From positions 224,001 to 288,000 of the IMG/VR virus record IMGVR_UViG_3300045988_170943: a DNA stretch of 64,000 nucleotides; one strand, given 5' to 3'. Shown piece by piece: positions 4,902 to 54,906 of the stretch (the first letter of the stretch is position 1; every line of letters begins with the position of its first letter). Under the pieces are notes generated by a model. It worked only from the letters and a program-made list of their open reading frames with translations, was not told where the DNA came from and searched no databases. The stretch is from a virus. A program made the translations under genes and the position numbers.

Positions 4902-5248
4902 CCCTGCTGCGAGTCATTGCTGGTCGCTGATGATCCTTCGTACTCCTGCCGTTTCACTTCAGGTGGCGGCATTGTTGCGCACATTTTTGGTGGGTGTGTC
5001 GCTCATTTTTGGGGGTGGCGGCAGTGGGGTTGGTACCCTCATGGGTGTGTGTAGAGCGTGGCTGCGTGATTGAGTGCGTTAGATAGGGTTGTGTTGGTGG
5101 GCCTGGGTGTGGTACCCTTTCCCCCAGCAACCACAAGGTCACAGCATGGTCACATAGTGTGATATACTATGCGCGACCACACGGTAGATTAACACGGTTA
5201 AAGTATTAGAAAACGTTAGGCCAAAAGGGAAAGAGGGGCAACACGCAA

Positions 5249-7792
5249 GTGAAACTCAACGTTGATGGTGACATGATCCCCTCCCTTGAGAGTACCTACT
5301 GGTCCACCCCGGAGTGCCCCGTCCCCGAGAAACACTCGTCACGAGAAGCCCGAGCAGTGTTCGCCAGCCTGATGCCTGAAGGGGCTACCGGATACTTCCC
5401 CACCAAGGACAAGAAACCAGTTGAGGATCACTGGGACCCGGCCCCCTTCCTTCAGGAACCCAAGGGCGGTGACAAAGAGAACCCCGGCAGGTGGTACCTC
5501 TTTGAGGACGGCAAGTGGGAGGACGGCACCAACTACACGTACGCGGTCTACATCACACCTGGCAGCAACATCTGCGTCTTCGATCTCGACCCCCCCAGAG
5601 ACCTGACAGGAAACCCGGACATGAAGTACCGGGTAGTAGAAAAAATGCGCGACAGGTTCTCCAAGATGCTGAAGACCGACCTGTCCGAGACAACGACCGT
5701 GCGCACCCCAAGCGGAGGGATGCACCTCACCGTCGAACTCCCCAAAAGGTTCACCCCATCCCCCAACACCAGCACCCACAGGGCCCCAGGAAAAGGGTTC
5801 CCCATCAAAACACTCGCCAAGTACAACCGGCACTTCGAGAAGATCACAGGCATCAACCCCCACCTGAACGGCGACATCCGCTCCGCCCACTCCAAAGGGT
5901 ACGTGAACGGCCCAACCCGACTCTGGGACTGGGAGAACCCCGCACGTAACTACACGGCCGGGAAGAACGCCTACTTCCTAATGAACCGCAAGAAGCCACT
6001 CAAGTTGTCGGTGAAGGCGTGCCAGATCCTCAGGGACGGAGCCTACCTGGAGTACAAGCAAGCCAGCAAAAGAGACCGCAAAAAAAGAGCAGAGTCAGAA
6101 AAGCGACGTAACGCCAAGCACGAGCAAGGCGACCGTGACCGGCGGCCACTAGGCTACTGGCTCAACAAACACCTAGACAACACCAAGCACCTTGAAGCCG
6201 ACTACAAGAACCTCTTCGGTGGCGACAGTTACGCCAGCACCCTCCTGAATGAAGCCCCAGGCGTTGAGGTCCTAGACATCCTCGCCAAGCAGATCACCCA
6301 GTTCTATGAGGGCGAGGACACCCTAGAGACGTTCCACGGGTGGCGATCCATCATCACCCAGTCCATGGCCTGCCACTACAGCAACAAGCAGATCATGGGA
6401 GCATGCATCGCCCTGAGAGCAGATAGGGACACGCACCGTGGAAGCCGCATCAGCACCAAGGAACTGCGACAGGACATCAGGAAGGTGCTGTGGAAGGCCA
6501 AAAAGCGTGAGGGCGGCATATTCCACGGGCCAGCCTGCCCAGAGAGCATCCTCCGCAACACCAAGATGGCCGGTAAACCCAAGCCCCAGGACCGCATTGA
6601 CGCCACCGGTGACAAAGGGCAGGCGGAACTTGACGCATTCCTGAAGTACCGGAGAGACAAGATCCTTGAAGGCACATGGGGTCGTCGTGGCGCCGGTTTC
6701 ACCTCCTTCTACAACCCCAGGGTCATTGACATCGTGAAGGCATCCGATGCGCTCATGTCCCCACGTGGCGGCATGTTCACCCAGAAGTACCGTGACGCGA
6801 TGGGCATCCTTGACGCTATCGCCCAGCCCTTGTGCAACGTCGGCGACCACATGTTCCCCATGGCATACAACTTCACTGCCGGGATGCTGAAACTTGACGG
6901 CCCTAACGCCCACGACCGGGTAAAGGAAGCCCTCAGGTACCTCAGGGACCAGAAGGTGCTGGAGGTCACCAACAAGCAATACGAGGGGCTGGCCGCTACA
7001 TACACGGTCGCGGACGAGTTCATCAACGACACTCTCACCAGGGCACTTAAGTCATCATGGCGCAACCAGTTACCTGACGCCAACAATGAGCGGGAGCCAC
7101 TATTCTTCGACCGCCGGTCCGGTGAGTTCCGCCAGGTGTTCACAGGCGCTATCGTCACCAGCAAGTTCAACTACAACAAAGAGGTCCAGGAGATCATCAA
7201 CTGCGTGAACCTGGACTACACCGACCCCAGCCTGGTTGGGCCTGCTACCGCGATCCGGTACCTGAAAGATGAGCGCATGACCCGTGGCGTCATGCTCGCC
7301 GAGGACAACACCACCTTGTACAACGAGGCTACTGGCGAAGTCGTGGAGCAAGTCCCGTGCGTGACAACCCATGGGGCCGCCGCCCAGGTCATGGGTGTGG
7401 CATGGGCAAGGCCCGTTGACTTTGTGAGCGACCTGGAACAGATCTGGGCGGACTGCCCAGCACCTGAGGAGATCGCATACGACGAGTTCAACGACCCGGA
7501 CCATGCGCTGGAGGTTGACGAGCGGTGGCAGCCCGACGCGATGGAACCCGACCCTGTGGCAGACTCAGCGCCCGCACGATTCATAGGGCCACCGGGCACT
7601 CCTTACACCTCTCCCAGTAATGATGGCTGGACCAAGGGTGGGGTTGACAGCGTGTGCTACAATGGTTACGGAAGCGTCAATAAAGATAACAATAAAGATA
7701 AACAGGCGCTTCACTACCACCACATGACTGAGGAGATAGAATGCCTAAGAAGCGGAAGTCGCGTAAGCGCAATGGCAGGGGCGCCACTTTAG
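5249..7792 (+). CDS. archaeo-eukaryotic primase (AEP) superfamily prim-pol domain protein; putative replicative primase-polymerase
   Basis: N-terminal prim-pol motifs in the canonical order: motif I ICVFDLDPP (DxD), motif II RTPSGGMHLTV (SGG.H), motif III GDIRSAHSKGYVNGP. The 847-aa product has no Walker A. The start is a GTG at 5249, with an alternative ATG at 5273. Confidence 0.6.
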   Translation: MKLNVDGDMIPSLESTYWSTPECPVPEKHSSREARAVFASLMPEGATGYFPTKDKKPVEDHWDPAPFLQEPKGGDKENPGRWYLFEDGKWEDGTNYTYAVYITPGSNICVFDLDPPRDLTGNPDMKYRVVEKMRDRFSKMLKTDLSETTTVRTPSGGMHLTVELPKRFTPSPNTSTHRAPGKGFPIKTLAKYNRHFEKITGINPHLNGDIRSAHSKGYVNGPTRLWDWENPARNYTAGKNAYFLMNRKKPLKLSVKACQILRDGAYLEYKQASKRDRKKRAESEKRRNAKHEQGDRDRRPLGYWLNKHLDNTKHLEADYKNLFGGDSYASTLLNEAPGVEVLDILAKQITQFYEGEDTLETFHGWRSIITQSMACHYSNKQIMGACIALRADRDTHRGSRISTKELRQDIRKVLWKAKKREGGIFHGPACPESILRNTKMAGKPKPQDRIDATGDKGQAELDAFLKYRRDKILEGTWGRRGAGFTSFYNPRVIDIVKASDALMSPRGGMFTQKYRDAMGILDAIAQPLCNVGDHMFPMAYNFTAGMLKLDGPNAHDRVKEALRYLRDQKVLEVTNKQYEGLAATYTVADEFINDTLTRALKSSWRNQLPDANNEREPLFFDRRSGEFRQVFTGAIVTSKFNYNKEVQEIINCVNLDYTDPSLVGPATAIRYLKDERMTRGVMLAEDNTTLYNEATGEVVEQVPCVTTHGAAAQVMGVAWARPVDFVSDLEQIWADCPAPEEIAYDEFNDPDHALEVDERWQPDAMEPDPVADSAPARFIGPPGTPYTSPSNDGWTKGGVDSVCYNGYGSVNKDNNKDKQALHYHHMTEEIECLRSGSRVSAMAGAPL

Positions 7793-7998
7793 GTTCTGAC
7801 TGGAGAACCCGCCACCTGGTGACAGACCAGAACCCACTGTATGTGCGTGACGAGAAGGCCGCAGAGGAACTTCGTGCCTTTTTCGCGTCCGGGGCTGTCA
7901 GGATGATAGGTGGCGACGGGCTCTTCTCCGACATGGAGGACCATTACGGGTACGACTGGCGTGACAGCGTAGACGAGATGGGCGACCCAGAGGACTAG
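7741..7998 (+). CDS. small hypothetical protein with a basic N-terminus and an acidic C-terminus
   Basis: ATG preceded by gaggagatagaATG, a strong RBS. It overlaps the 3' end of the prim-pol gene in a different frame. Confidence 0.35.
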   Translation: MPKKRKSRKRNGRGATLGSDWRTRHLVTDQNPLYVRDEKAAEELRAFFASGAVRMIGGDGLFSDMEDHYGYDWRDSVDEMGDPED

Positions 7999-8224
7999 AC
8001 CCGCCCCCTGAACCCTGAGATCAGATACGCCCTCCCTTGGGTGAGGCGGCACACACCCTAGTGCGAGTGCGAAACCACTTGGACGCGACATGCCCCATAC
8101 AGGGAATGTGATCATCACAACAAGGGGTGACCCCTCATAGTTTGTGCCCACTAGATTAATCCGTGCTAACATACGTGACCGTATAGGCCCCGCCCGTTTG
8201 CGTGCGCGGGGCGGGAATCTAGAA

Positions 8225-10741
8225 ATGAGGGGCGGCAAGATGCTGACAAAGACACCGCAAAGGACCTACCCGGAGGAGACCCACCTGGTAGGGAAGGTCG
8301 TTGATATGACTGTGGCGCCGGAGGCCATGGGGCACATCGTGCAGCGGTTGACAGACATTTACGCCGACCCGCTGGTGGCTGCTGTCCGTGAGGTGGTGTC
8401 GAATGCTCAGGATGCCACCAAAGCCGCCGGTAGCGACCGTCTGGTTGAGGTCTCGTCCCCAACGTACAGCGACCCACACCTGACGGTCATCGATCATGGT
8501 ACGGGCATGACCCCTGACATCATGGAGTCCATCTACCTGACCTATGGTGTGTCCACGAAGAGCACAGACATGGGGCAGGTGGGTGCGTATGGGCTTGGCG
8601 CGAAGGCCCCGCTTGCCTACAGTGACCGGTTCCAGGTAACCAGTGTCCGGGGCGGGGTGAAGACGTTCGCTGAGATCTACCTGGATGACGCTGGGCCGCA
8701 CGCGAATGTTCGCACCGCCAGCACAGGGGGGCCGGACGGGACCATGGTGCGTATCCCCATTCAGGGGAAGGACTTCGAGAAAGCCAATGAGACACTAGCG
8801 TCGTACAGCAAGTACGGCGGCATGTCCCCCATCGTCATCAACGGCATCACCTATGACACGTGCAAGGATCTAGTGTATGTGGGAGAGGTGGTCCTGGATG
8901 CCGTGTCGGGTGTGAAGGGCGGCCTGTGGGTGCGCGACCCGTACACTGTCGGTGATGGCATACCGAGTCTGATTGATAACGTCATCCACCGGTGGGAGGA
9001 CCCGGAACTGGTTCTGTGCGGATACAAGTACAACCACAAAGGCGAGAAGGACGGCTACAGTCGCCTGACGGTGCAGATAGAGCCTGGCGTGGTAGACTTC
9101 CCGTCCTCCAGGGACACCATCATCAACAACAGTCGTCTCACTGATCTGGTTGGCAGTGTGAAGAACCAGGCCGCTGAGGGCGATCTGCTAACGAGGTTGC
9201 GGGCGATTCACGTGTCGCACCAGAAGCCCTGCAATGTGCACAAGGCTGCTGAGGGAAGCATGCTGCTGGCCCACAAGGATGGCACCATGAGCCTCGACGG
9301 GGAGGTGTTTGACCCTGCCCTGCTGGACGGCCCTATGGGGGTGGATGCGTCCAGGGTAATGCGTGAGCCTGGTAACGTGTTCGCCACTGTCCGGTTGGAC
9401 AAATATGAGCGCAAGTGCTTCACCCAGGTTGTTGACGACTATGATGGAGGCGAGACTGATGTGCCTTACCCGATAGTCGCGGGTGATGTCTATAGCGTGA
9501 GCGTGTTGAAACCAAAGGTGAAGGCCGCGTTCACCAAGGGTGCTGGGGTGTCGGCCCTGTCGTTCGTTGCGGGCATGAAGTACGACCCACTGCGCCCGAT
9601 CCTGGTGGGATGCTCCAGTGAACGGGATATCGAACATGTGATCCGGTGGCGTCAGGAGATCCTGAACACATACGGTAGCAAGGTTAACCTGTTCATGGTT
9701 CGTGGCACCCCAACCCTGAGTGACGCTGATGAGGCCCACCGGCACCTGTGGGACCCTAACGACACGCTCCGGGAGATGACCGCGACCGAACTGCTGGATA
9801 GTGTCGGAGCCACCGGCAAGAAGTCCCAGGCGACTGAGCGCATGTTCGATGGTGTCACCTTGTTTGACAACCGACACGAAACCGTGGTGACTTCCCGTGA
9901 AGTGACCGACCCTAGCGCGATCTATAGGTTCGGCTGCAACAGTGAAGATGCGTCCTCCACCAGGAACACACTGACTTTCCGTGATGTGACCAGTGACCCT
10001 AACACGCTGATCCTCATTGACAATAACCCCATATACTCCGATGTGAAAGACGTACTGAATGGCTACCTACACGCTGAGGGTGACAGAGCGCTAGAAGGTA
10101 AGCGCCTAGTCCAGGGGAAGTCGCTGACGAAGACTCTGCTCAGCGCGGTCCCGAAAGAACGGCTCCTTGTCGGTGGTGACCCACGTGTCCGCGATAAGAA
10201 CCTGCTGAAATCACTCGATGACCGCCGGTTCCGCCTCGACCACAAGTTCGATCACATGCTGGCCCAGGACAAGGCCATGATGATGGTCGCAGCATTGAAG
10301 CGCCACAGGTGCAGGACTCAAGCGTTCCTTCCTCACCTCGTCACAAAGGAGACGTACCCGAACCTGTGGGAGATGAACCAAATCCTTGGTGCAGTCAACA
10401 AGCACTACGGGAAGAAGGTGTTCATCCCGGATTACAGGGTGAAATACGGGCGCGTCATGGGTGAGGAGAACGCCGCATGGGTGGAGACCATCATCGCCAT
10501 GGAAAACTCCAGCGAATGGTCTTCCACTGGCCTGTTCCATGTGATCAACGACGTAAGGACCTACTACAGGGGAATGCCGCAGCGGGTCGTGAACGCAGTT
10601 ATGGGTGAGTTCGAGGCTGAATGCCAGAAGATCCTTGATAAGGGGCACCGTCGCGTGAAGGCCGACATGGAGGCACTTGAAGATGAGTCCATGGTTGAGA
10701 TGTTCCGGAAGAAGCAGTCCATTATCACCGAGCAGGTATGA
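8225..10741 (+). CDS. GHKL-superfamily ATPase (Hsp90/MORC-type HATPase_c_3 N-terminal domain) with a large C-terminal extension
   Basis: The N-terminus AAVREVVSNAQDATKAAGSDRLVEVS...TVIDHGTGMTPDIMESIYLTYGVSTK...GQVGAYGLGAKAPLAYSD matches the Bergerat-fold N/G1/G2 boxes of Hsp90 (IRELISNASDA ... D.GIGMT ... IGQFGVGFYS). The likely start is ATG 8225 or ATG 8240, the latter with a gagggg RBS. The ORF-track TTG at 8144 is probably an upstream extension. Confidence 0.6.
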   Translation: MRGGKMLTKTPQRTYPEETHLVGKVVDMTVAPEAMGHIVQRLTDIYADPLVAAVREVVSNAQDATKAAGSDRLVEVSSPTYSDPHLTVIDHGTGMTPDIMESIYLTYGVSTKSTDMGQVGAYGLGAKAPLAYSDRFQVTSVRGGVKTFAEIYLDDAGPHANVRTASTGGPDGTMVRIPIQGKDFEKANETLASYSKYGGMSPIVINGITYDTCKDLVYVGEVVLDAVSGVKGGLWVRDPYTVGDGIPSLIDNVIHRWEDPELVLCGYKYNHKGEKDGYSRLTVQIEPGVVDFPSSRDTIINNSRLTDLVGSVKNQAAEGDLLTRLRAIHVSHQKPCNVHKAAEGSMLLAHKDGTMSLDGEVFDPALLDGPMGVDASRVMREPGNVFATVRLDKYERKCFTQVVDDYDGGETDVPYPIVAGDVYSVSVLKPKVKAAFTKGAGVSALSFVAGMKYDPLRPILVGCSSERDIEHVIRWRQEILNTYGSKVNLFMVRGTPTLSDADEAHRHLWDPNDTLREMTATELLDSVGATGKKSQATERMFDGVTLFDNRHETVVTSREVTDPSAIYRFGCNSEDASSTRNTLTFRDVTSDPNTLILIDNNPIYSDVKDVLNGYLHAEGDRALEGKRLVQGKSLTKTLLSAVPKERLLVGGDPRVRDKNLLKSLDDRRFRLDHKFDHMLAQDKAMMMVAALKRHRCRTQAFLPHLVTKETYPNLWEMNQILGAVNKHYGKKVFIPDYRVKYGRVMGEENAAWVETIIAMENSSEWSSTGLFHVINDVRTYYRGMPQRVVNAVMGEFEAECQKILDKGHRRVKADMEALEDESMVEMFRKKQSIITEQV

Positions 10742-10903
10742 TGCCCTAGAGGAAAGGCAGAGCCCAGGCCACAACAGGGGCACATGCAAGATTGGAAAAT
10801 AGTGAAAAAGACACACCACGCCTGTGCAGTTTAGCCCCAACGCTACCCCTCTGACCTGACCCCACCCCCTTTGGCGTCAAGCACCCACCTAGGAGAAGCA
10901 AGC

Positions 10904-11950
10904 ATGTACGACTTCGACTCGATCACCACCAGTCAGGTCACTCTACCCTACCGAGACAGGCCCTACCTGAGAACCAACTACAGTGACCCGCACCTGGCCG
11001 GTTACGAGGTCACAGTAGTTGAGGACACGCGACTGGACCGACCCGAGAACATGGGTGACGAAGGAGTGCGGTGCCTGACCCTGATCGCCCGGTTCCCGAG
11101 GTGCATCCTCCCAGAAGTGAATACGCACCGGGTCATCTCCAAGAACAGTGCCTCCAGCCGCGCCAGAAGCGTCAAAGCAACCATTGGTGCCGTCATGCGT
11201 GACCCCTATGTGCCCCTATTCACCTCCAACCAGAAAGGCATGTCCGGCAGGTTCCTAACCGGCAGGAAACGTGACGCCGCAGAGACAAGGTGGCTGGCGG
11301 GCCGCGACCTAGCCGTCTCCACTGAACTATCCCTCCTAACAGGTAAGCCACTAGACCCGGATCTGTACCTCGACTGGGAGGGCCGCCTAGACTCCTACTA
11401 CAAGGACGTCTACCAGGCGGATACCCCAGGAGCGTATGCTTTAAGCGTCCACAAACAGAACGCGAACCGAGTCATCGAACCATACATGTGGCATGAGGCC
11501 CTACTGACCTCAACCATGTGGGACAACTTCATCCATCTGCGTACCGACCTGGCGACAGCCCAGCCAGAGATCGTAGCCCTGGCGCGGCTCATCCAGGCAG
11601 CCCTGAAGGAATCTACCCCGGACACGTCATGGATCCACCTGCCGTTTGCTAAAAACCGCCCCCAGGAGACCACCGATTTTGTGTCTCTACGTGACGAACT
11701 GATGATGGCAGCCACCCAGTGCGCCCAAATCTCATACCGGGACAAGTCCACCGCAACAGCCTCCACCGCCACCACCGCCCTAGGTGAGCGACTACTGGCG
11801 TCAGGTCACATGTCACCGTTCGAGCACGTAGCGTTCGACGCCCGGAAGTACGCCGAGTTCACAGATGAAGACCTACCTAGGGACGCTCAGCGGCTACGCA
11901 GCAACCTTGGTGACGAGTGGGTGCAGTTACGGCACGCCCTCACCAGGTAG
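10904..11950 (+). CDS. thyX: flavin-dependent thymidylate synthase ThyX
   Basis: ThyX signature ...NTHRVISKNSASSRARS... (RHR...S.S.R motif). ATG at 10904 preceded by aggagaag. The ORF-track TTG at 10871 is an upstream extension. Confidence 0.8.
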   Translation: MYDFDSITTSQVTLPYRDRPYLRTNYSDPHLAGYEVTVVEDTRLDRPENMGDEGVRCLTLIARFPRCILPEVNTHRVISKNSASSRARSVKATIGAVMRDPYVPLFTSNQKGMSGRFLTGRKRDAAETRWLAGRDLAVSTELSLLTGKPLDPDLYLDWEGRLDSYYKDVYQADTPGAYALSVHKQNANRVIEPYMWHEALLTSTMWDNFIHLRTDLATAQPEIVALARLIQAALKESTPDTSWIHLPFAKNRPQETTDFVSLRDELMMAATQCAQISYRDKSTATASTATTALGERLLASGHMSPFEHVAFDARKYAEFTDEDLPRDAQRLRSNLGDEWVQLRHALTR

Positions 11951-12050
11951 GACACCACCAACACTTACTTACCTCTCACCTACCTTCACCCTTCCCTGCT
12001 ACTTGGCTCTTGCTCATAGCATTAATGGGATAAGAGTGGAAAAGACACAA

Positions 12051-12099
12051 GGTAAGCCGCCTGCAAGCGTACTGAGATGCGTCTTGCAGGCGGCTTACC
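12051..12099. terminator. perfect 17-bp stem-loop downstream of thyX
   Basis: ggtaagccgcctgcaag / cttgcaggcggcttacc around a 15-nt loop. The + strand has only a weak U-tract after it; the - strand has tgtcttttcc. Confidence 0.45.
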
Positions 12100-12191
12100 T
12101 GCTTCTAGGACAAAATGCTTAGATACTAGGCCAGAACACTTGATGAATACCCACGAAAACACGGTAGGGTCAGGCAGAGAAGGTACGACAC

Positions 12192-12761
12192 ATGTGGCAT
12201 TTCAGCACTAAAAAGGACGGGGTGATGCCTTGCGGCGCCAAGACTCCAGACAAGTGCGACTACAAGGACCAGCCCCACTTCGCTACAGAGCAGGAGGCAA
12301 ACCGGGCATGGCATGAGACGAAACAGATCACTCACGGCCTGTTCGCCAACGCCAGCAGCAGAAACAGAAGAAAAACGGTCAAACACCCCACTAACATCAC
12401 CCACGGGGAGGACCCGGCAGCCAAGACACAGGGGACCAACACCCAAAACCAGCAGGCCAGCCGTGACACGCGGAACGAGCCTGACCGTGACGACAGGCGG
12501 ATTCAAGCACTGACCTCAATGACCCCAGACGAGGCCAGGCGCTACATCTCCAGCAGCCCAACGAGAGAAGAGATCACCGCTAACATCGTGGGCTCCAGGA
12601 TCAGTGAACTGGGCGTCAAGGTCGGTCACGTGAAGAGAGCCGCCACCAACGGGCACTGCGACACGGAAACACTACGATCCTATGCCGAGTCCATCCAGGG
12701 GGATGTTGACGATACCGTTTCGCTAACGGAAGCGCTCATGTTCTCCAAGAGTGGCAACTAG
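12192..12761 (+). CDS. hypothetical protein whose N-terminal Cys/His module is paralogous to that of ORF 3579
   Basis: The N-terminus MWHFSTKKDGVMPCGAKTPDKCDYKDQPHFATEQEANRAW aligns with MYWHINTNKGNIVEPCGRTTGRCHFIEHYPSEEEARIASA of ORF 3579. ATG preceded by gagaaggtacgacac. Confidence 0.5.
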   Translation: MWHFSTKKDGVMPCGAKTPDKCDYKDQPHFATEQEANRAWHETKQITHGLFANASSRNRRKTVKHPTNITHGEDPAAKTQGTNTQNQQASRDTRNEPDRDDRRIQALTSMTPDEARRYISSSPTREEITANIVGSRISELGVKVGHVKRAATNGHCDTETLRSYAESIQGDVDDTVSLTEALMFSKSGN

Positions 12762-12873
12762 TGCTACAATGACAACCATCCTGTCGTCTCTGTTGTGTAA
12801 AGCGTAGAACAGCCTAGAACAGGGCGATAGGATCCAAGGCAAGAGAAAACACACCTGGAGAGAAGACAACAAA

Positions 12874-13413
12874 ATGGGGAGGATCAGCCCCGAGGTCAAG
12901 ACGGCCCGGAGGATCAGACGCAGACTCAAGGCCGTCTCCGGCACAGTGGCCACTATCATGGTGATAGCCGTCACCCTCATCATTAGCCTCTACGCTGCCG
13001 GTGTCCGCACCTCCTACACGGTGTCAGGGTCCATGGAGCCCACCATTTACCGGGGAGACCTCATCCTGTCCTCCACCCGGTACAACGCCATCGACAAGGG
13101 TGACATCATCGTCTATCAAGCACACTGGTTCCAAGACAAGCCAGTCCTCCACAGAGTCAAAGACAAGGCCCTCAACAAGGATACGGGCGAGTTTCGCGGC
13201 TACATCACACGCGGCGACAACAACGACGCGGACGACCCTGAAACCGTCACCCCCAGCCAAGTAACCTCAGAGGTCATGGCAGTCATCCCCTATGCTGGCT
13301 GGGTTATCAACCCGTGGACGTTCGCGGCCGCTGCCACCCTCGTCATAACACTGACCCTGGCGACGCTCATCAACTGGGAGCAGGTGGCGGCACGTAGAAG
13401 AAAAACACCCTGA
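12874..13413 (+). CDS. type I signal peptidase (S26 family, SipW/LepB-like)
   Basis: N-terminal TM anchor followed by the catalytic-Ser box SGSMEPTIYRGDLIL, and a downstream HRVKDK (Lys region). ATG with a ggagagaag RBS. Confidence 0.75.
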   Translation: MGRISPEVKTARRIRRRLKAVSGTVATIMVIAVTLIISLYAAGVRTSYTVSGSMEPTIYRGDLILSSTRYNAIDKGDIIVYQAHWFQDKPVLHRVKDKALNKDTGEFRGYITRGDNNDADDPETVTPSQVTSEVMAVIPYAGWVINPWTFAAAATLVITLTLATLINWEQVAARRRKTP

Positions 13414-13499
13414 CCCCAACCCTCTTTCCTCTATTCGGATTTGTGGGATATTGCCTACCTGACACAAGAAAGTCATGTCGGAGAGGCAGCAGGGCACCC

Positions 13500-13760
13500 A
13501 TGAGTTCATTCACCAAGTTAGTGGACGCAATCACGCAGCGCGCCACCGAACTAGAAGAAGCACCCAACGGTCGCCTCACCCTGGACGCCCTGTTCCTCAA
13601 AGCCCTCCACAAAACCATCAACGAGGTCCACAAGGGCGCTGAGCCTGACGACTTCACCGCCCTGGCCGTCATCAACCTTGTCATCATGGGCGCAGATGAG
13701 GGGCACACCGCCGAGGACATCAAGGCGTACATCACCCAGTTACGCACCGAGAGCAACTGA
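13500..13760 (+). CDS. small hypothetical protein
   Basis: ATG at 13500 with ggagagg upstream. The ORF-track start at 13443 is probably too long. Confidence 0.35.
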   Translation: MSSFTKLVDAITQRATELEEAPNGRLTLDALFLKALHKTINEVHKGAEPDDFTALAVINLVIMGADEGHTAEDIKAYITQLRTESN

Positions 13761-13850
13761 CCTCTGGTGAGACGCCAGCACAGCAGCAAAACACGACACC
13801 ACCACAACACCAACGGTAACAGTGATTGTGGTGCGTCTCAGGCGGGGAAG

Positions 13851-14396
13851 ATGATCGCCTGGGTAGACGTAGAATCAACCGGCACCAGCGCAGACAAAGA
13901 CATGATCCTGGAGGTTGGCGGCATCATCACCGACATGCAAGGCCACCAGGTCGGCGACGAGTACACAACCCTCATCAACGTGGACCCAGTGTCAACAGCA
14001 ATCGCACTCGCCGACACCAAGGTCCGCACAATGCACGACACCTCCGGACTGTGGGCCGCACTCTGGTCCACCCCCAGCACCAACCTCAACCAGGTGGACG
14101 CCCAAATGGCTCACTGGATCGACACCACCACCCACGGGACACCAGTCCTCCTTGGTGGAAACTCCCCACACCTGGACCGCAACCTGATCTCAGTGAACCT
14201 GCCAGCAACCTACAGTCGCCTATCGCACAGAAGCATCGACGTCACCTCAATCGCCCTCATGCTCCAAGAGAACACGCCCATCAGCCGCTACCAGAAGAGT
14301 GGAACCCACAGGGCCCTGGAGGACGCTAGAGACTCCCTCAACGAGTACCGCTACTACCTGACCCAGTTAAACGGCCACCCACACCCCTGGGCCTGA
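13851..14396 (+). CDS. orn: oligoribonuclease (DEDDh 3'-5' exonuclease, Orn-like)
   Basis: IAWVDVESTG (Exo I DxE), GNSPHLDRNLI (Exo II) and HRALEDARDSLNEYRYY (Exo III H..D + YYR) are collinear with E. coli Orn (WIDLEMTG / GNSIGQDR / HQAMDDIRESVAELAYY). The ATG at 13851 is preferred over the ORF-track GTG at 13767. Confidence 0.8.
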   Translation: MIAWVDVESTGTSADKDMILEVGGIITDMQGHQVGDEYTTLINVDPVSTAIALADTKVRTMHDTSGLWAALWSTPSTNLNQVDAQMAHWIDTTTHGTPVLLGGNSPHLDRNLISVNLPATYSRLSHRSIDVTSIALMLQENTPISRYQKSGTHRALEDARDSLNEYRYYLTQLNGHPHPWA

Positions 14397-14542
14397 AATA
14401 CGACACAAGAGGTGTGGGTCAAATCAGGTGGCCGGTGACTACCCAGAGCAAAGACCACCTCATAGTGTGACGCGGGTAGGATGACAGCCGACACGCACCA
14501 ACAACCAAGTAACATAGCAAACCCCTACAGATGAGGTAATGA

Positions 14543-14794: not shown

Positions 14795-14850
14795 TACCCT
14801 GAGTTGATATAATAGAGCATGAGCGACAAAGATGATCCGCTCACAAGGCA

Positions 14851-16862: not shown

Positions 16863-17043
16863 GATGACGAAGCCCCAACTAACACGCAACCTGGAACCGA
16901 TCACACCAACCACACTCTGACCCCAGCCAAGAGGTACCAGAGGAAACACCAGAAACTTCCCCACATCCTTAAACTAACGCCACGATATTTCGGTGAGCGC
17001 CCACCTATGGGGGGTTAAACCAGCGAGGACGAAAGACAGGGCA

Positions 17044-21395: not shown

Positions 21396-21490
21396 GGGGC
21401 AAGCACCGCACGCATTGCCACGTAAACACACCAGACGCACGTTTCCTCGATATTTTTTGCGATTCTACTTAACATTTTTATGGAGGGGTA

Positions 21491-23338: not shown

Positions 23339-23409
23339 CAGCAAACAGAAGCATTTATCAAAAACATGTAGAAATATTTGATATTGGTCAGAAACTCTTA
23401 CACAACCGG

Positions 23410-23853: not shown

Positions 23854-23940
23854 ATCATTTACTAGAACGAATACATTTTGTGGGGAGGAGTGTGCGCTGA
23901 TACATGATATTCCATGCTAGTCAAATGAAGAGGAAACCTA

Positions 23941-27236: not shown

Positions 27237-27292
27237 TGATATTGCGGAGTACTGTATCGCGTACTGAAAGTTCCAGGAGGGGCTGCAAAATA

Positions 27293-28506: not shown

Positions 28507-28701
28507 CAGAACAAGCCATACACTCCACCCGCGTTACCCGCAGCCCATCGCAAAAGCCGCGCACTTAGGGGTGCGGGTAACATGTGCATGAGCGTGGATA
28601 TTCGCTCACAAGAATCGACAGGCCAAGACCCACCGAAACAAGAAGAGGCGACAGCCAAAACTGGTGGGCCACTGGTACCATCGGGACGTTAGGACAACAC
28701 A

Positions 28702-30165: not shown

Positions 30166-30205
30166 AGAAGGCGGTCGATATTTTTCGGGATATTGGCCGC
30201 CTTCT
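30166..30205 (+). terminator. stem-loop after the PhoH2 gene
   Basis: gaaggcgg / ccgccttc stem. The U-tract is weak. Confidence 0.35.
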
Positions 30206-35665: not shown

Positions 35666-35754
35666 CAGGGGCAGGATATACTGTCGAAAAAGAAGCCACG
35701 CCTTTGTGGGACAGTTGCACGCACTTTTTACGAACGACCCAGGGGGATTCACGC

Positions 35755-36718: not shown

Positions 36719-37540
36719 ATGGGGAAGCACGCGGCAGAGAACACACCACAACTACCAGCAGATGAGGGAAACTGGGAGCGGGATATGGACTCTGTGCTCG
36801 CCAGCATCGACACTCACACGGGCGGAGCAACCAACAGCGACACGAACCCCCAAGACGCCACACCCCCTGTAAACGCCAACGGCAGTGCCCCCAAGAAGAC
36901 AGCCCCGCCACTGGAGTTGGAAGCGGAAACCGCAATAGGCACTGATACTGCTACTGCCTATGAGGTTGATCTTGGCGACACGAGAAGCCACAGTGACGAG
37001 ACTGTAGCCAACCTGGGTGAAGAAGACGATACTGGCGACCTCAGCAACGACACCGCCAGTGTCGTGGATACCTACTTTGATGACGATGAGGAGTTCCTGG
37101 CTGGTGACGACAAGGTGCTAACCGAGGAGCAGGACATGGCCCTGTTCAAACAGTCCGGGAAGGTCGTCAAGTGGCGGGTGGAGAACCTGTACCGACCTAA
37201 CGGCGATTTTCGACGCGGCAACCTCGTTCGAGCCAACCCTCCAGTGCTCATCATCTCCGATAGTGATGGCAACGAGGTCGAGTTCATGGTCACCAGGGAG
37301 TTCGCCGCATCCATGAGGTCCGTGATGGGTGATGCTGAGATCGCACACATGTCCAGCACTCTGCCGCCGTGGGCCACACCAACCAGGAGACCGGGCGTAG
37401 CCAATACGTCAACATGGAAGGAGCGATGCGCCGAGTGGGCGAAGGAGCACAAGGTGAAGGCCACAGGATTGATCCTGCTGGCTATCTACATGCTGGCATC
37501 AATGGTCTCCCCATTTATCATGCGATATTTCGGCAGTTAA
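36719..37540 (+). CDS. hypothetical acidic protein with a C-terminal TM segment
   Basis: ATG with a gaagagag RBS and a C-terminal hydrophobic helix. Confidence 0.4.
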   Translation: MGKHAAENTPQLPADEGNWERDMDSVLASIDTHTGGATNSDTNPQDATPPVNANGSAPKKTAPPLELEAETAIGTDTATAYEVDLGDTRSHSDETVANLGEEDDTGDLSNDTASVVDTYFDDDEEFLAGDDKVLTEEQDMALFKQSGKVVKWRVENLYRPNGDFRRGNLVRANPPVLIISDSDGNEVEFMVTREFAASMRSVMGDAEIAHMSSTLPPWATPTRRPGVANTSTWKERCAEWAKEHKVKATGLILLAIYMLASMVSPFIMRYFGS

Positions 37541-39434: not shown

Positions 39435-39470
39435 GTTGACAATCGCCACCCCAATAGTGTAGTGTACACC
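39435..39470 (+). promoter_or_regulatory. sigma-70-like promoter candidate (TTGACA-18-TAGTGT) in the 275-bp leader upstream of the sigma factor gene
   Basis: ttgacaatcgccaccccaatagtgtagtgt. A second ATTGACA lies at about 39614. Confidence 0.3.
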
Positions 39471-39655
39471 ACAGATCGCTCCGGGTAGGAGAGCAGCCTC
39501 AAAGGTCAGCGGTCAACACTCGTCGTTAGGGTACTGCTGGTTGCGTTCACACCTAGCCTGTTGCTGGCTAACGTGTCGATATTTGGCGGGCACTTTAACA
39601 CGGGTGTAGCCATAATTGACAAAAATACGAGGCTTAGCAACAACAAGAGGTGACA

Positions 39656-40600
39656 ATGGCTACCTACCAGTACCTTACCCGCGAGCAGGAACTAGCCTAT
39701 GGGCGCCAGGTCCAGGCCATGCTGAAGGTGAAGAAGGATGCCGAAGGTGAAGGCATCGACCTGGAAAAGTTACAGCAAGGTCCAGTCAACAAGATCAAGG
39801 ACCCAGAACTCAGGAAGATACGCACCATCCTAGATGACGGGAACCGTGCAGCAGAAGCACTCATCGAAGCGAACACTGGACTCGTCATCGACAGGGCCAA
39901 GAGATTCAAGGAAGCATACCCTTCCGCACCTGACCTCGAAGACATCATCCAGGACGGGAAAGCCGGGCTAGTGCGGGCAGTGTGGAAGTACGACCCCAGC
40001 CGCGGACTGAAGTTCTCCACAATGGCTGTCCCATGGATCTTCCAGTCCATCAGCAGGTCAGCGAACCAGGTCAGCCGCCCTATCAGGCTACCAGAGAACC
40101 GTGTCGATCAGTTGTCCAAGATCATGCGCATGCGTAAGGATTACGCCGACACCGGAATGCGCATGAAGGAGATCGATCAGGAGATCATGCAGAAACTTGG
40201 CCTGTCCAAGGAAGTGTTCGACTCCATCGTCCACGCTTCTGTCCCACTGGTGTCACTGAATGTGGAGATCAGGGATGGCGACACTCATAAGGAACTGGGA
40301 GACCTCATCAACCTCGGCCAGGAGCCATCCGTGGAGGAGCGATTCGAGCAGACTGCGATGAGCCGGGAACTCACCTCTGCGATCCTCTCACTGGGGGACA
40401 TGAACGCAGACATCATCGCCGCAGCATTCGGCATTCACCTCCCTGGCCGGGCGCTAATGCGACCCAAGGATGCGAAGACTAAGTGGCACATATCCAACAA
40501 GACGTATGCGATGCGACTTAAGGCAGCAGTTGAGGCACTAAGGCAGGTGCTCTCATCTAAGGGGCTCACATACTTGGACCTGGCCGCTGCCGCCCAGTAG
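39656..40600 (+). CDS. sigma-70 family RNA polymerase sigma factor
   Basis: Region 2 is LIEANTGLVIDRAKRF...DLEDIIQDGKAGLVRAVWKYDPSRGLKFSTMAVPWIFQSISRS (cf. [37 protein letters not shown]). Region 3 and a region-4 HTH are also visible. ATG at 39656 with an aagagg RBS. Confidence 0.8.
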   Translation: MATYQYLTREQELAYGRQVQAMLKVKKDAEGEGIDLEKLQQGPVNKIKDPELRKIRTILDDGNRAAEALIEANTGLVIDRAKRFKEAYPSAPDLEDIIQDGKAGLVRAVWKYDPSRGLKFSTMAVPWIFQSISRSANQVSRPIRLPENRVDQLSKIMRMRKDYADTGMRMKEIDQEIMQKLGLSKEVFDSIVHASVPLVSLNVEIRDGDTHKELGDLINLGQEPSVEERFEQTAMSRELTSAILSLGDMNADIIAAAFGIHLPGRALMRPKDAKTKWHISNKTYAMRLKAAVEALRQVLSSKGLTYLDLAAAAQ

Positions 40601-46101: not shown

Positions 46102-46159
46102 CCAAAACTGGGGATGGTGATATTCGCCCATGATTCCAACATTTTAAGGGAGTAGACAC

Positions 46160-47404
46160 ATGAGCCTGTCACCACAGTGGCGCAACGTCATGGAGGCACT
46201 GTCCGACCCAGCCGTCTCCGAGGTGACAGCAAACGGGCCAGACTCATTCTTCGTATCCAGGGGCGGCACCCGCTACCACATGAAAGACGTCACCTTCAAA
46301 GACGTCGATGACTACATGCAGCAGATCGGCGAAAACCTCATCCCACTGGTCCGATCAGCACACGACTGGGACCCAAACGGCATCCTCTACGAAGGCTACC
46401 TGAGCGCCCGCATCCATGGAAAAAAGGTCGCGGGCCGGTGCACCATCGTCCTCCCCCCAGCCTGCCTGACCGCCCAGATCTGCATCACTAACCGTGTCGC
46501 CTCCCTCACCACCCTGGAAGACATCGCCAGCACCGGGTCCATGAGCACCGAGATGCTGGACTTCATCAAGGCGGCCGTAGACAGCGACCTCACCATCGCC
46601 GTCAGCGGATCCACAGGTGCCGGGAAGACCACCCTCATGGAAGCCTGCACGAAACGGTTCTCCAACACGTCAAGAATCGGTGTCGCTGAGGACATGCCCG
46701 AACTACACCTTGTCCAACCGAACGTCTCCTACCTTAACTCCGTACCCTGGAAACCCGGAATGAAGGAAGAAGAATCCGTGTCCCTGACCTGGGTCGTCCA
46801 ACAGTACCAGCGACTCAGGGTCGATAAGGTGATCGTTGGTGAGGTTCGCGGCAAGGAGTTCGCCGACTTCCTCATCGCCGCGAACTCCGGTCTGGGCGGC
46901 TCCATGATCACCCTCCACGCCGAAGATCCCCAGAACTGCCTAAACAAGATGACCGAGTTCGCGCTCGCCGGTGCACCAGGCAGGCCCATCAAGTCCATCA
47001 ACTCATCCATAGCGAACACCATCGACATCATCATCCAAATGGTCAAGACCCAGGACAAACGCAGACGGGTCTCACACATCCAGCAAGTCACCAGAACCGT
47101 GTCCGACGGCCCGGACGCCAAGATCGTCAGCGCACCCCTCTATTTGTGGGACAAGGAAACAGACACGTTCAGTAAGGCCGGGAACATAGAGGACGCCCTC
47201 AGGCAGAAGATGACAGCCCACGGCATCGACGTCCAAAGGTTCCTCACCTCAGAGATCGGCGCCAGATACCCCTCCCACGGCACAGTCGGCGGCATCACCC
47301 CACACAACAACACCATGCCTGCACCCACACCGGCCCCCGCAATGGGGACACCCGACACGAGTAGCACACAGCCCTTTCCAAGAGTCAGGCGCAGAACCAT
47401 ATGA
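46160..47404 (+). CDS. type II/IV secretion system ATPase (CpaF/TadA/VirB11 family)
   Basis: Walker A TIAVSGSTGAGKTTLM, Asp box IGVAEDMPEL and Walker B RVDKVIVGEVRGKEF, with a His box LGGSMITLHAED. Confidence 0.8.
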   Translation: MSLSPQWRNVMEALSDPAVSEVTANGPDSFFVSRGGTRYHMKDVTFKDVDDYMQQIGENLIPLVRSAHDWDPNGILYEGYLSARIHGKKVAGRCTIVLPPACLTAQICITNRVASLTTLEDIASTGSMSTEMLDFIKAAVDSDLTIAVSGSTGAGKTTLMEACTKRFSNTSRIGVAEDMPELHLVQPNVSYLNSVPWKPGMKEEESVSLTWVVQQYQRLRVDKVIVGEVRGKEFADFLIAANSGLGGSMITLHAEDPQNCLNKMTEFALAGAPGRPIKSINSSIANTIDIIIQMVKTQDKRRRVSHIQQVTRTVSDGPDAKIVSAPLYLWDKETDTFSKAGNIEDALRQKMTAHGIDVQRFLTSEIGARYPSHGTVGGITPHNNTMPAPTPAPAMGTPDTSSTQPFPRVRRRTI

Positions 47405-48863: not shown

Positions 48864-48910
48864 TATTTACCTAAAAGTTTCCTGTGTTTTCTGTTTGGAT
48901 GGAGTGATTT

Positions 48911-49861: not shown

Positions 49862-49915
49862 TATTCGCATTATCTGCCTAATGCCCCTGCCACACGTGAG
49901 ACAAGGACCCCGAGA

Positions 49916-50455: not shown

Positions 50456-50577
50456 AACCAGGCCAGTAATACAGTAGGATAGTCCCAGCAAAAACGCATG
50501 ATACTGGGGAACAAAAACTAGCGGCAGCGATATTTTTCCCCTGAGTTCTCAAAGACCCACAAGGGGAAACGGCCGTA

Positions 50578-54762: not shown

Positions 54763-54906
54763 ACCATGCAACTAGGGACAGAAAAAGGAATCTAGAGGAA
54801 AACTGTCAGAGGCACTGTGGTTCCCCCACTCCGCCCCTATTGTGGCGCTACTTGCAGGGATATTTCAACGTTAGTCACTTTACGTCGATCATGAGGATGT
54901 TTCTAC

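What the first reader, a model, noticed from the sequence alone, without database searches (positions are those of the whole stretch)
5153..14482. Recurrent upstream motif CATAGTGTGA-N(8-20)-(C)GGTAGnnT in front of several early genes; candidate element-specific promoter
Near-identical sequences precede the prim-pol gene (catagtgtga at 5153-5162 ... acggtagatt at 5181-5190), the GHKL ATPase gene (tcatagtttg at 8134 ... ctagattaat at 8151-8160) and nrdH (catagtgtga at 14461-14470 ... gggtaggat at 14474-14482). The downstream half also recurs before ORF 12192 (acggtagggt at 12161-12170) and ORF 3579 (tcggttagaa at 3511-3520). The 3' element fits an actinobacterial -10 (TAnnnT, often with an upstream G). 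The conserved 5' element sits too close to be a canonical -35. This suggests a dedicated promoter class, possibly read by one of the two element-encoded sigma factors.
Basis: seen in the sequence. Interest (0 to 1): 0.55.

Follow-up and report, generated by a model that had tools for sequence, protein, structure and literature searches.

The report
Chance upstream motif; real promoter signal GATATT
The reported two-part "promoter" is an ordinary -10-type hexamer next to a 10-base resemblance that exists only in this one strain, whereas the motif that really recurs upstream of genes in this ~400 kb mobile element and its distant relatives is the hexamer GATATT.

Summary
They do not form a conserved unit.

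- **5' half:** the spacing from CATAGT to TAGNNT is 26, 10 and 10 nt. An exact 10-mer shared between two intergenic regions is expected by chance (35 such pairs seen, about 13 in shuffles). In 15 population variants of the same element (93-95% identical), CATAGTGTGA is absent, although all keep the neighbouring blocks.
- **3' half:** the TAGRNT hexamers are intergenic-enriched. Those at 5185 and 14477 are invariant. They look like ordinary housekeeping-sigma -10 elements of a high-GC Gram-positive host.
- **The element-wide signal:** GATATT occurs 18 times on the + strand and never on the - strand. Fifteen copies are intergenic against 1.1 expected. It lies a median 55 nt upstream of starts, has no -35 partner, and shows 0 of 72 variable columns among variants. 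It is also enriched in syntenic relatives of 35-51% GC, which carry the same divergent sigma factor.

No transcription starts are mapped.

The parts
5153..5162 (+). Site 1 5' element, CATAGTGTGA. This is an allele specific to the window's lineage, and its last two bases belong to the invariant GATATA hexamer.
   Evidence: All 12 aligned variants read CACG[T/C]ACAGTGTGA. The 10-mer is absent from all 15 divergent variants.
5161..5166 (+). GATATA hexamer of the GATATW class, overlapping TGATATACT, which has the form of an extended -10. It lies 88 nt upstream of the prim-pol start.
   Evidence: Invariant in 12 of 12 aligned variants. The block AGTGTGATATACTAT is present in 15 of 15 divergent variants.
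5185..5190 (+). TAGATT, a -10-like hexamer upstream of the prim-pol gene (5249-7792).
   Evidence: Invariant in 12 of 12 variants. The preceding G is A in 11 of 12. The downstream 58-nt leader has only scattered single-variant changes in seven columns, five of them confined to L011.
8136..8144 (+). Site 2 5' element, CATAGTTTG, inside a block conserved as a whole (8098-8150).
   Evidence: No variable column among 12 variants, but the flanks are equally conserved.
8152..8157 (+). TAGATT, a -10-like hexamer upstream of the RIIA-like GHKL ATPase gene (8240-10741). It shows turnover among variants.
   Evidence: It is TAGGTT in L001. It is destroyed (TGCACT) in L015 and L018, which carry a 10-nt insertion GTAGAATAGC (a new TAGAAT) about 70 nt upstream.
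8107..8119 (.). Perfect palindrome TGTGATCATCACA upstream of site 2. It is a possible regulator site and is unique in the window.
   Evidence: It is conserved in the variants except for its first base (C in L015 and L018). There is only one match in the window.
14461..14470 (+). Site 3 5' element, CATAGTGTGA. This is an allele specific to the window's lineage.
   Evidence: The fourth base A is G in 11 of 11 variants (CATGG, CACGG or CATGT).
14477..14482 (+). TAGGAT, a -10-like hexamer upstream of nrdH (14543-14794).
   Evidence: Invariant. GGGTAGGATGACAGCCGACA is present in all 14 divergent variants that cover it.
12165..12170 (+). It is not conserved.
   Evidence: The first T is C in 5 of 11 variants.
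It contains no TAnnnT hexamer.
   Evidence: It reads TAGAAC. The whole region is conserved in L001, so this says nothing specific about the site.
12828..12833 (+). TAGGAT upstream of the S26 peptidase gene.
13447..13452 (+). GATATT, 53 nt upstream of the small ORF starting at 13500.
   Evidence: Invariant in the variants.
14806..14811 (+). GATATA within TGATATAAT (14805-14813), a perfect extended -10. It is followed by two hairpins ending in a terminator-like stem near 14905.
16984..16989 (+). GATATT, 60 nt upstream of the start at 17044.
   Evidence: Invariant while the upstream 100 nt are highly variable.
21449..21454 (+). GATATT upstream of the TcpC-like gene.
23380..23385 (+). GATATT upstream of the pilin-like ORF 23460.
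23906..23911 (+). GATATT upstream of the TcpF-like ATPase gene.
27238..27243 (+). GATATT just after a terminator hairpin, about 54 nt upstream of the ATG at 27292.
28597..28602 (+). GATATT upstream of the PIN/PhoH gene.
30177..30194 (+). Two GATATT copies (30177 and 30189) forming the two arms of a strong hairpin upstream of ORF 30273. The same architecture is found in L032, and L034 has one copy.
35675..35680 (+). GATATA, 29 nt upstream of ORF 35704.
37524..37529 (+). GATATT in the last codons of the upstream gene, 48 nt before the start at 37572.
39436..39465 (+). Canonical housekeeping-type promoter TTGACA-N18-TAGTGT upstream of the sigma gene.
   Evidence: The -10 varies as TAACGT or TAAGGT among variants and in L032, always keeping TAnnnT. 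TTGACA is conserved in L032.
39578..39583 (+). GATATT, 72 nt upstream of the sigma gene. It is conserved at the orthologous place in L032 and L034.
39650..40600 (+). Element-encoded sigma-70-family factor, with divergent regions 2.3/2.4 and 4.2.
46119..46124 (+). GATATT upstream of the VirB11-like ATPase gene. It is orthologous in L032.
47401..48498 (+). Second, weak sigma-like protein.
   Evidence: NF005642 E=5e-5, TIGR02937 E=1e-3. A gene of similar length (362 aa, no Pfam hit) sits at the same place in L032.
48862..48867 (+). GATATT upstream of the HU gene.
49860..49865 (+). GATATT overlapping the stop codon of ORF 49352, 56 nt upstream of the start at 49916.
50529..50534 (+). GATATT upstream of ORF 50578. 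A TAGGAT lies at 50475 in the same spacer.
54859..54864 (+). GATATT upstream of the TrbL/VirB6-like gene.
   Evidence: Invariant next to a hypervariable stretch.
58361..58366 (+). GATATT upstream of ORF 58406.
60118..60123 (+). GATATT directly after a terminator hairpin. A TAGGAT lies at 60146.
63366..63371 (+). GATATA in the spacer after ORF 61241-63340.

Best explanation
The reported composite is not one functional unit.

(1) Inferred: the 3' hexamers TAGATT (5185), TAGATT (8152) and TAGGAT (14477) are -10 elements of housekeeping-sigma (SigA-type, TAnnnT/TAGRRT) promoters. These would let the host RNA polymerase start transcription of the prim-pol, RIIA-like ATPase and nrdH-dnaG units. They have no usable -35, which is common in high-GC Gram-positives.

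(2) Shown: the 5' string CATAGTGTGA is a coincidence of this one lineage. It was created by a 2-bp deletion plus a substitution at site 1, and by a single substitution at site 3. It is absent from every other sampled variant of the element.

(3) The element does have a dedicated promoter-like signal, and it is [C/G/T]GATATT. Shown: it is found only on the coding strand and is almost always intergenic. It lies about 30-130 nt upstream of starts and has no conserved -35 partner. It is invariant among variants, and it is conserved at orthologous spacers and enriched in distant syntenic relatives of very different GC content. Inferred: it is a '-10-only' promoter read by the element's own divergent sigma factor (39650-40600, or the weaker 47401-48498). 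Its -12/-11-contacting and -35-contacting residues differ systematically from housekeeping sigmas.

Site 1 contains both classes: GATATA at 5161 and TAGATT at 5185.
For: **Non-conservation of the 5' half**
- Alignment of 12 variants (93-95% identical): site 1 reads CACG[T/C]ACAGTGTGA in 12 of 12, and site 3 reads CATGG/CACGG/CATGT in 11 of 11.
- The exact 10-mer is found only in loci identical to the window. Yet AGTGTGATATACTAT and GGGTAGGATGACAGCCGACA are in 15 of 15 and 14 of 14 divergent variants.
- CATAGTKTG columns are no better conserved than the intergenic background: 5 of 27 variable, p=0.48.
- A shared 10-mer is expected by chance.

**The 3' half as a -10**
- TAG[AG][AGT]T has 11 of 22 + strand copies intergenic.
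- The hexamers at 5185 and 14477 are invariant.
- Loss of the site 2 hexamer in L015 and L018 coincides with an inserted GTAGAATAGC.
- A canonical TTGACA-N18-TAnnnT lies upstream of the sigma gene, and its -10 varies only within TAnnnT.
- The element sigma is closest to actinobacterial SigB, HrdB and SigA.

**GATATT**
- It is the top intergenic-enriched hexamer, with 14 of 18 copies intergenic.
- GATAT[TA] occurs 22 times on the + strand and once on the - strand.
- Fifteen intergenic copies against 1.1 expected, Z=13.
- There is no information content upstream of it.
- G at position 1 is specific: TATATT 1 copy with 0 intergenic, AATATT 3 with 2.
- 0 of 72 columns are variable against a 23.4% background, permutation p<5e-5.
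- Orthologous copies lie upstream of the sigma gene, upstream of the VirB11-like gene, and in the post-PhoH hairpin in L032 and L034.
- It is enriched in L009, L032, L034, L038 and L052, but not in the unrelated controls L040, L060 and L067.
- The sigma family has conserved deviations: FSTMAVPWIFQS against FSTYATWWIRQA, PENR against PVH, and no RERVRQIE in region 4.2.
- The two classes are distributed differently. TAGRNT has 6 sites in the first 15 kb and 5 in the rest; GATATW has 3 and 19. Fisher p=0.03.
Against: - No transcription start is mapped, so every promoter assignment is inferred from sequence.
- As a class, TAGRNT hexamers are not significantly better conserved than the intergenic background: 8 of 54 columns variable, p=0.21.
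- TAG is partly excluded from coding sequence as a stop codon, which inflates its intergenic enrichment.
- Site 2's CATAGTTTG is conserved, although the whole block around it is too.
- ATAGTGT is over-represented in this variant's spacers: 4 copies against 0.37 expected.
- Two independent derived changes produced the same 10-mer, which could reflect lineage-specific selection rather than chance.
- The host is unknown. 'Actinobacterial' is inferred from GC content and sigma similarity only.
- Which sigma reads GATATT is not known. A host sigma cannot be excluded.
Confidence: 0.6

Rival explanations
1. CATAGTGTGA-N(8-20)-GGTAGnnT is a dedicated bipartite promoter of early genes, recognised by an element-encoded sigma factor.
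For: There are three co-oriented intergenic matches to CATAGTKTG-N-TAGNNT against 0.02 expected for that pattern. The spacing is an identical 10 nt at sites 2 and 3. The element encodes sigma factors.
Against: - The spacing is 26, 10 and 10 nt.
- The 5' half is absent at sites 1 and 3 in all 15 divergent variants that keep the same genes and flanks.
- 'CGG' is not conserved.
- The pattern was defined after the fact, and repeated 10-mers are common.
- The element-wide conserved motif is a different one.
Confidence: 0.04
2. CATAGTKTG is an operator for a regulator gained or retargeted in this lineage. It would co-regulate the prim-pol, RIIA-like and nrdH units by binding just upstream of their -10 elements.
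For: All three copies are intergenic, co-oriented and 10-26 nt upstream of a -10-like hexamer. Two independent derived mutations converged on the same 10-mer. ATAGTGT has 4 intergenic copies against 0.37 expected.
Against: - There is no dyad symmetry shared by the three sites.
- Its position relative to the -10 differs at site 1.
- No candidate regulator was identified.
- Only one lineage carries it. Contigs with the identical prim-pol protein come from at least three samples, and the three fetched are 99.9-100% identical in DNA.
- Convergence of two short sites that were already 7/9 alike is within the reach of chance.
Confidence: 0.07
3. The TAGNNT hexamers at sites 1-3 are not promoters. 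These genes are transcribed from other signals (GATATA/TGATATACT at 5160-5168, upstream read-through) and the hexamers are conserved for other reasons.
For: - As a class, TAGRNT is not more conserved than background, p=0.21.
- Site 1 has an invariant GATATA 18 nt upstream.
- The site 2 hexamer is dispensable in L015 and L018, and the hexamer at 12165 is lost in 5 of 11 variants.
- There is no -35.
Against: - Terminator-like hairpins precede several of these spacers (3347-3379; 12051-12099 and 14830-14905), so new initiation is needed.
- 11 of 22 copies are intergenic.
- The hexamers at 5185 and 14477 are invariant within otherwise variable spacers.
- A replacement TAGAAT appears where TAGATT is lost.
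Confidence: 0.2
4. GATATT is not a promoter element. It could instead be a strand-specific site for a DNA- or RNA-binding protein, or a processing signal, such as an RNase site in polycistronic RNA, an antitermination or loading site, or a nucleoid/partition protein site.
For: It is strictly strand-specific and sometimes sits inside hairpins (30177/30189), directly after terminators (27238, 60118), or within the last codons of a gene (37524, 49860). No starts are mapped.
Against: - Its position is a median 55 nt upstream of starts.
- It has the xATAxT form of a -10 hexamer, identical to the SPO1 late -10 (PMC3601020).
- It is absent from the antisense strand: 0 copies, against 8.8 expected for the two strands together.
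- It co-occurs with a divergent sigma family across relatives.
Confidence: 0.15

Closest known systems
Actinobacterial housekeeping (SigA/HrdB) promoters: -10 TAnnnT (Streptomyces 'TAGRRT'), with a weak or absent -35
   Same: TAGATT, TAGGAT and TAGGGT fit the hexamer (own knowledge of the consensus). They lie in spacers upstream of co-oriented genes. One clear full promoter, TTGACA-N18-TAnnnT, exists upstream of the sigma gene.
   Different: The host is unidentified and no transcription starts are known.
Bacillus phage SPO1 late promoters (gp33/gp34 sigma): CGTTAGA-N17-19-GATATT
   Same: The -10 hexamer is identical (GATATT; PMC3601020). In both cases a mobile element's own sigma-family protein is the proposed reader.
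   Different: There is no conserved -35-position element here. CGTTAG is enriched in spacers but not at a fixed distance upstream of GATATT. The sigma here is RpoD/SigB-like, and no relation to SPO1 gp34 was tested.
Phage T4 late promoters (gp55; TATAAATA at -10, no -35)
   Same: A single short -10-region motif without a -35, read by a divergent element-encoded sigma (own knowledge). This matches the architecture inferred here.
   Different: The motif is different. T4 late transcription needs gp33 and the sliding clamp, and nothing comparable was tested here. The sigma here retains recognisable regions 1.2 to 4.
Inocles, giant plasmid-like elements of oral Streptococcus (Kiguchi et al. 2025, PMC12340149)
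   Same: - Size class: contigs here are 402-424 kb, and the relative L005 comes from a 437 kb contig.
- L005 has 32% GC, like Inocle alpha, beta and gamma.
- Gene content named in the paper includes VirB4/VirD4, gyrase, an 'RpoS' sigma, NrdH and signal peptidase. Most have counterparts here; no VirB4 was identified in this window.
   Different: This element has 57% GC and presumably a different host phylum. No sequence-level comparison with published Inocle genomes was possible. The paper contains no promoter analysis ('promoter' occurs 0 times).

Membership tests
   There are three sites in this variant. The two further sites have the 3' half only, and one of them (3511) lacks TAnnnT.
   The gaps between CATAGT and TAGNNT are 26, 10 and 10 nt.
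   The 5' half is absent at site 1 (12 of 12 variants) and site 3 (11 of 11), and the 10-mer is absent from 15 divergent variants. 'CGG' is CGA in 11 of 12.
   There are 35 repeated 10-mer pairs against 12.9 in shuffles. The motif is one of many, and it is not among the top enriched k-mers except ATAGTGT, with 4 copies.
Housekeeping sigma-70/SigA-type promoter | -10 hexamer TAnnnT in a spacer, co-oriented with the downstream gene | tested here: met
   TAGATT, TAGATT and TAGGAT lie 64, 88 and 66 nt upstream of starts.
Housekeeping sigma-70/SigA-type promoter | -35 TTGACA-like hexamer 16-19 nt upstream | tested here: not met
   None at sites 1-3 (and inspection). It is met at 39436-39465 upstream of the sigma gene. 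Its absence is tolerated in actinobacterial promoters (own knowledge).
Housekeeping sigma-70/SigA-type promoter | Hexamer under purifying selection | tested here: inconclusive
   The hexamers at 5185 and 14477 are invariant. The one at 8152 turns over with a compensating insertion, and the one at 12165 is lost in 5 of 11 variants. As a class, p=0.21.
Housekeeping sigma-70/SigA-type promoter | Transcription start 5-10 nt downstream | not testable with these tools
   No transcript data are available.
Mobile-element sigma-dependent '-10-only' promoters (T4 late, SPO1 late type), applied to GATATT | Short invariant motif upstream of many genes, on the coding strand only | tested here: met
   18 copies on the + strand and 0 on the - strand. 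15 intergenic against 1.1 expected. Median 55 nt to the next start.
Mobile-element sigma-dependent '-10-only' promoters (T4 late, SPO1 late type), applied to GATATT | No conserved -35 element | tested here: met
   Information content is at most 0.36 bit at positions -45 to -2 and 0.57 bit at -1, the base directly upstream of the hexamer, where A never occurs.
Mobile-element sigma-dependent '-10-only' promoters (T4 late, SPO1 late type), applied to GATATT | Element encodes a divergent sigma with altered promoter-contact residues | tested here: met
   Regions 2.3/2.4 and 4.2 differ from housekeeping sigmas in all seven family members aligned.
Mobile-element sigma-dependent '-10-only' promoters (T4 late, SPO1 late type), applied to GATATT | Motif and sigma co-occur across relatives | tested here: met
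   L032 and L034 carry the sigma with GATATT upstream of it. L009, L038 and L052 show the motif, but their sigma genes lie outside the fetched stretches.
Mobile-element sigma-dependent '-10-only' promoters (T4 late, SPO1 late type), applied to GATATT | Transcription from the motif depends on the element sigma | not testable with these tools
   This needs in vitro transcription or expression data.
SPO1 late promoter proper | CGTTAGA at -35, 17-19 nt upstream of GATATT | tested here: not met
   There is no upstream conservation.

The most novel reading that the evidence does not exclude
GATATT is the -10-only promoter of a private transcription programme run by a dedicated sigma clade. That programme is shared by a superfamily of giant (about 300-440 kb) plasmid/phage-like elements, Inocle-like, whose members range from 32% to 57% GC and so probably live in different bacterial phyla. 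The element sigma would then drive the transfer and structural genes and its own gene. The motif would serve as a portable signature for finding these elements and defining their regulons.
Probability: 0.4. Interest if true: 0.6.

Novelty: new member of a known kind. Interest (0 to 1): 0.38.

Why it matters
As posed, the finding is mostly ordinary. It combines a housekeeping-type -10 with a strain-specific coincidence, so it should not be carried forward as a new promoter class.

The check nevertheless uncovered a clean promoter-like signature, GATATT, and a matching divergent sigma clade. Both occur in a very abundant but essentially uncharacterised ~400 kb element of human metagenomes and in its distant relatives.

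If confirmed, this would give:
- a testable model of early (host sigma) versus element-sigma transcription in these giant elements;
- a way to predict their operons;
- a simple sequence marker for recognising family members.

All of it can be tested directly with existing oral metatranscriptomes or with in vitro transcription.

Tried and rejected
- Megablast of 10-20 kb of the window against the phage and plasmid collections gave no match.
- tblastn of the prim-pol protein against plasmids gave none. The coupling protein hits only about 24%-identical Spiroplasma and other plasmids. The sigma hits only about 30%-identical phage sigmas. No annotated relative exists in these collections.
- Two genome-contig scans (prim-pol protein; RIIA-like alignment) found nothing useful: no hit, then one weak Armatimonadota hit. 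The host could not be named.
- The prim-pol protein has no homologues outside its own 90% cluster in the 5.8-billion-protein search.
- A canonical E. coli-type promoter scan of 1-20 kb found fewer sites than shuffles did.
- I tested a CRP-like TGTGA-N3-TCACA operator shared by the sites. Only one copy exists, at 8107.
- I tested a GGTGAC/GGTCAC half-site shared by the three spacers. It is not enriched.
- Extended similarity among the three spacers beyond the 10-mer: none.
- Rfam and tRNA scans of the window found nothing.
- A literature search for a described giant plasmid of oral actinobacteria found nothing relevant.

Full report
**What is in the window.** The 64 kb window is 57% GC, with almost all genes on the + strand.

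- It encodes a replication and nucleotide-metabolism block. This comprises a GyrB-like protein, an 847-aa protein called prim-pol by sources, an RIIA-like GHKL ATPase, a ThyX-like protein, an S26 peptidase, an RNase T-like exonuclease, NrdH and DnaG.
- This is followed by type IV secretion/conjugation-type genes: a coupling protein, and TcpC-, TcpF-, VirB11-, TrbL- and pilin-like proteins. The window also encodes PhoH, a lysozyme, HU and an SMC-like ATPase.
- It carries two sigma-70-family proteins: 39650-40600 (a clear match) and 47401-48498 (a weak match).
- The same sequence recurs in many human metagenome assemblies, on contigs that repeatedly end at 402-424 kb. It is listed in IMG/VR as a viral genome.
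- It has no near relative among annotated phages or plasmids.

**The observation.** The strings are present essentially where stated.

- The pattern CATAGTKTG-N(4-30)-TAGNNT matches only the three cited sites, all on the + strand and all intergenic. That pattern was written after seeing them.
- Unbiased tests are less kind. Among the 41 spacers there are 35 pairs of repeated exact 10-mers, against about 13 in shuffles, so one shared 10-mer is unremarkable.
- The 10-mer with mismatches is not over-represented.
- The three spacers share nothing beyond it.
- The distance from CATAGT to TAGNNT is 26, 10 and 10 nt.
- The fifth cited site has no TAnnnT at all.

**The decisive test: population variants.** Protein look-ups retrieved 15 variants of the element that are 93-95% identical to the window over 4.5-24.8 kb. 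They also retrieved three contigs 99.9-100% identical to it.

- Site 1 reads CACG[T/C]ACAGTGTGA in all 12 aligned variants. The window has a 2-bp deletion and a C-to-T change.
- Site 3 reads CATGG, CACGG or CATGT in all 11 aligned variants.
- A search of all fetched loci finds CATAGTGTGA only in the identical contigs.
- By contrast, the adjacent blocks AGTGTGATATACTAT (site 1) and GGGTAGGATGACAGCCGACA (site 3) are in every divergent variant that covers them.
- CATAGTKTG columns are no better conserved than spacer background: 5 of 27 variable against 23.4%, p=0.48.
- The 'CGG' in front of TAGATT is CGA in 11 of 12 variants.

The 5' element is therefore a lineage-specific coincidence, or at most a lineage-specific novelty. 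It is not a component of a conserved promoter.

**The 3' half.**

- TAG[AG][AGT]T has 11 of its 22 + strand copies in the 7.8% of the window that is intergenic, 26-165 nt upstream of starts. Part of this enrichment arises because TAG is a stop codon.
- TAGATT at 5185 and TAGGAT at 14477 are invariant.
- TAGATT at 8152 is destroyed in two variants, which carry a 10-nt insertion GTAGAATAGC upstream. This looks like promoter turnover.
- TAGGGT at 12165 is CAGGGT in 5 of 11 variants.
- As a class, the hexamers are not significantly more conserved than background (p=0.21).
- A textbook housekeeping promoter, TTGACA-N18-TAGTGT, lies upstream of the sigma gene. Its -10 varies among variants and in a sister element only within TAnnnT.
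- The element sigma is closest to mycobacterial SigB/SigA and Streptomyces HrdB.

Several follow terminator-like hairpins whose stems show compensatory changes, so fresh initiation there is plausible.

- GATATT is by far the most intergenic-enriched hexamer: 14 of 18 copies. With refined gene starts it is 15 intergenic copies against 1.1 expected under a second-order Markov model, Z=13.
- All 18 copies are on the + strand and none on the - strand. With GATATA included, the count is 22 to 1.
- All copies lie 29-179 nt upstream of a plausible start, with a median of 55.
- The base before the motif is never A, and nothing else is conserved from -45 to +35, so there is no -35.
- G at the first position is specific: TATATT and AATATT are rare.
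- Across 10-12 variants, none of the 72 motif columns at 12 spacer sites varies, often right next to hypervariable sequence (permutation p<5e-5).

**GATATT in distant relatives.** Syntenic relatives were found through the RIIA-like protein, DnaG and the sigma. They have 51, 46, 42, 39, 35 and 32% GC and come from contigs of up to 437 kb.

- They show the same coding-strand, spacer-enriched GATATT. L032 gives p=3e-5, L009 9e-5, L052 2.5e-6, L034 9e-3, L038 1e-5 and L005 0.04.
- L008 and three unrelated control contigs show none.
- Orthologous copies sit upstream of the sigma gene, upstream of the VirB11-like gene, and in the hairpin after the PhoH gene, in elements whose sigma is only 60% and 40% identical.
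- In the low-GC relatives the other spacer motifs are canonical TTGACA/TATAAT. The second promoter class thus appears to track the host, while GATATT tracks the element family.

**Link to the sigma factor (inference).** The sigma family of these elements (seven members aligned) differs consistently from housekeeping sigmas (with own knowledge of sigma-70 contacts).

- At the residues that wedge and read -12/-11, it has FSTMAVPWIFQS where housekeeping sigmas have FSTYATWWIRQA.
- In the region 3.0 motif, it has PENR where they have PVH.
- In the -35-reading helix, RERVRQIE is absent.

This fits a -10-like hexamer with G instead of T at -12 and no -35. GATATT is also the -10 of SPO1 late promoters (CGTTAGA-N17-19-GATATT; PMC3601020), but the SPO1 -35 is not present here.

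**How this bears on the finding.** Sites 2 and 3 contain only the host-type hexamer.

TAGRNT sites are concentrated in the first 15 kb (6 of 11). GATATW sites are concentrated in the rest (19 of 22; Fisher p=0.03). But the replication block carries the ordinary flavour, and the rest carries the dedicated one.

**Limits.** No transcription start, expression or binding data exist here. The host is not identified. The assignment of GATATT to an element sigma rather than a host sigma rests on co-occurrence and residue differences. The resemblance to Inocles (PMC12340149) rests on size, GC content of one relative and named gene content, not on sequence comparison.

Noticed in passing
whole window; loci L012-L031, L035-L037: The element is very common in human metagenomes. 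The HU protein is indexed in 617 blocks of the contig collection, 109 of them with contigs over 200 kb, and its exact sequence is listed on 333 contigs. Assemblies repeatedly end at 402-424 kb, so it is probably a complete ~410-425 kb replicon. IMG/VR lists it as a viral genome, yet it carries type IV secretion genes.
   Followed up: partly
L005 (437 kb contig, 32% GC), L008, L009, L032, L034, L038, L052: These are distant syntenic relatives with the order prim-pol, RIIA(/RIIB), ThyX, S26 peptidase, exonuclease, NrdH, DnaG, then coupling protein. They span 32-51% GC. L005 matches the size and GC content reported for Inocle elements of oral Streptococcus (PMC12340149). The window may be a high-GC member of that superfamily.
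   Followed up: partly
window 14805-14912: A perfect extended -10, TGATATAAT, lies right after the nrdH stop. It is followed by a small hairpin and a very strong terminator-like hairpin (-46 kcal/mol, z=-6.8), whose stem changes among variants preserve pairing. This could be a ~90-nt small RNA or a leader/attenuator of dnaG. There is no Rfam match.
   Followed up: partly
window 30166-30205; L032 731-766; L034 830-880: A strong hairpin lies after the PhoH gene. Its two arms each contain GATATT; the hexamer pairs with itself through G-U/A-T. The hairpin is conserved in a sister element (sigma 60% identical), with stem changes that keep pairing. A 39% GC relative has one copy. This looks like a terminator and a promoter overlapping in one structure.
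   Followed up: partly
window 40680-40725; L032 13077-13122: A long hairpin upstream of ORF 40805 displays CGGTAAGAT (window) or CGGTAGGAT (L032) in its loop. CATAG forms part of the stem.
   Followed up: no
window 8076 region in L015 and L018: This looks like promoter turnover. Two variants lose TAGATT (8152) and carry a 10-nt insertion GTAGAATAGC about 70 nt upstream.
   Followed up: yes
window 1-5100: The strand composition flips here. GC skew is +0.28 and AT skew -0.30 in the first 2 kb, against negative GC skew and positive AT skew elsewhere. The 347-nt spacer before the prim-pol gene is G+T-rich, with a repeated TGGTACCCT. This may be a replication or transfer origin, or the left edge of the co-oriented gene block.
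   Followed up: no
L001 2472-3989; L028 1-502; L032 10958-12998: TnpB/Cas12f-like (IS200/605-type) genes are inserted at different places in different variants. In L032 one sits directly after the sigma gene, together with a resolvase.
   Followed up: no
window 8186-8217: A GC-rich hairpin (CCCCGCCCG...CGGGGCGGG) lies in the presumed leader of the RIIA-like gene, between the -10-like hexamer and the ribosome-binding site. Variants change both arms.
   Followed up: no
window 5215, 28690, 39535, 54870 and others: CGTTAG is also enriched in spacers (5 of 6 + strand copies), but at no fixed distance from GATATT. It is reminiscent of the SPO1 late -35 CGTTAGA, and here it often lies downstream of GATATT.
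   Followed up: no
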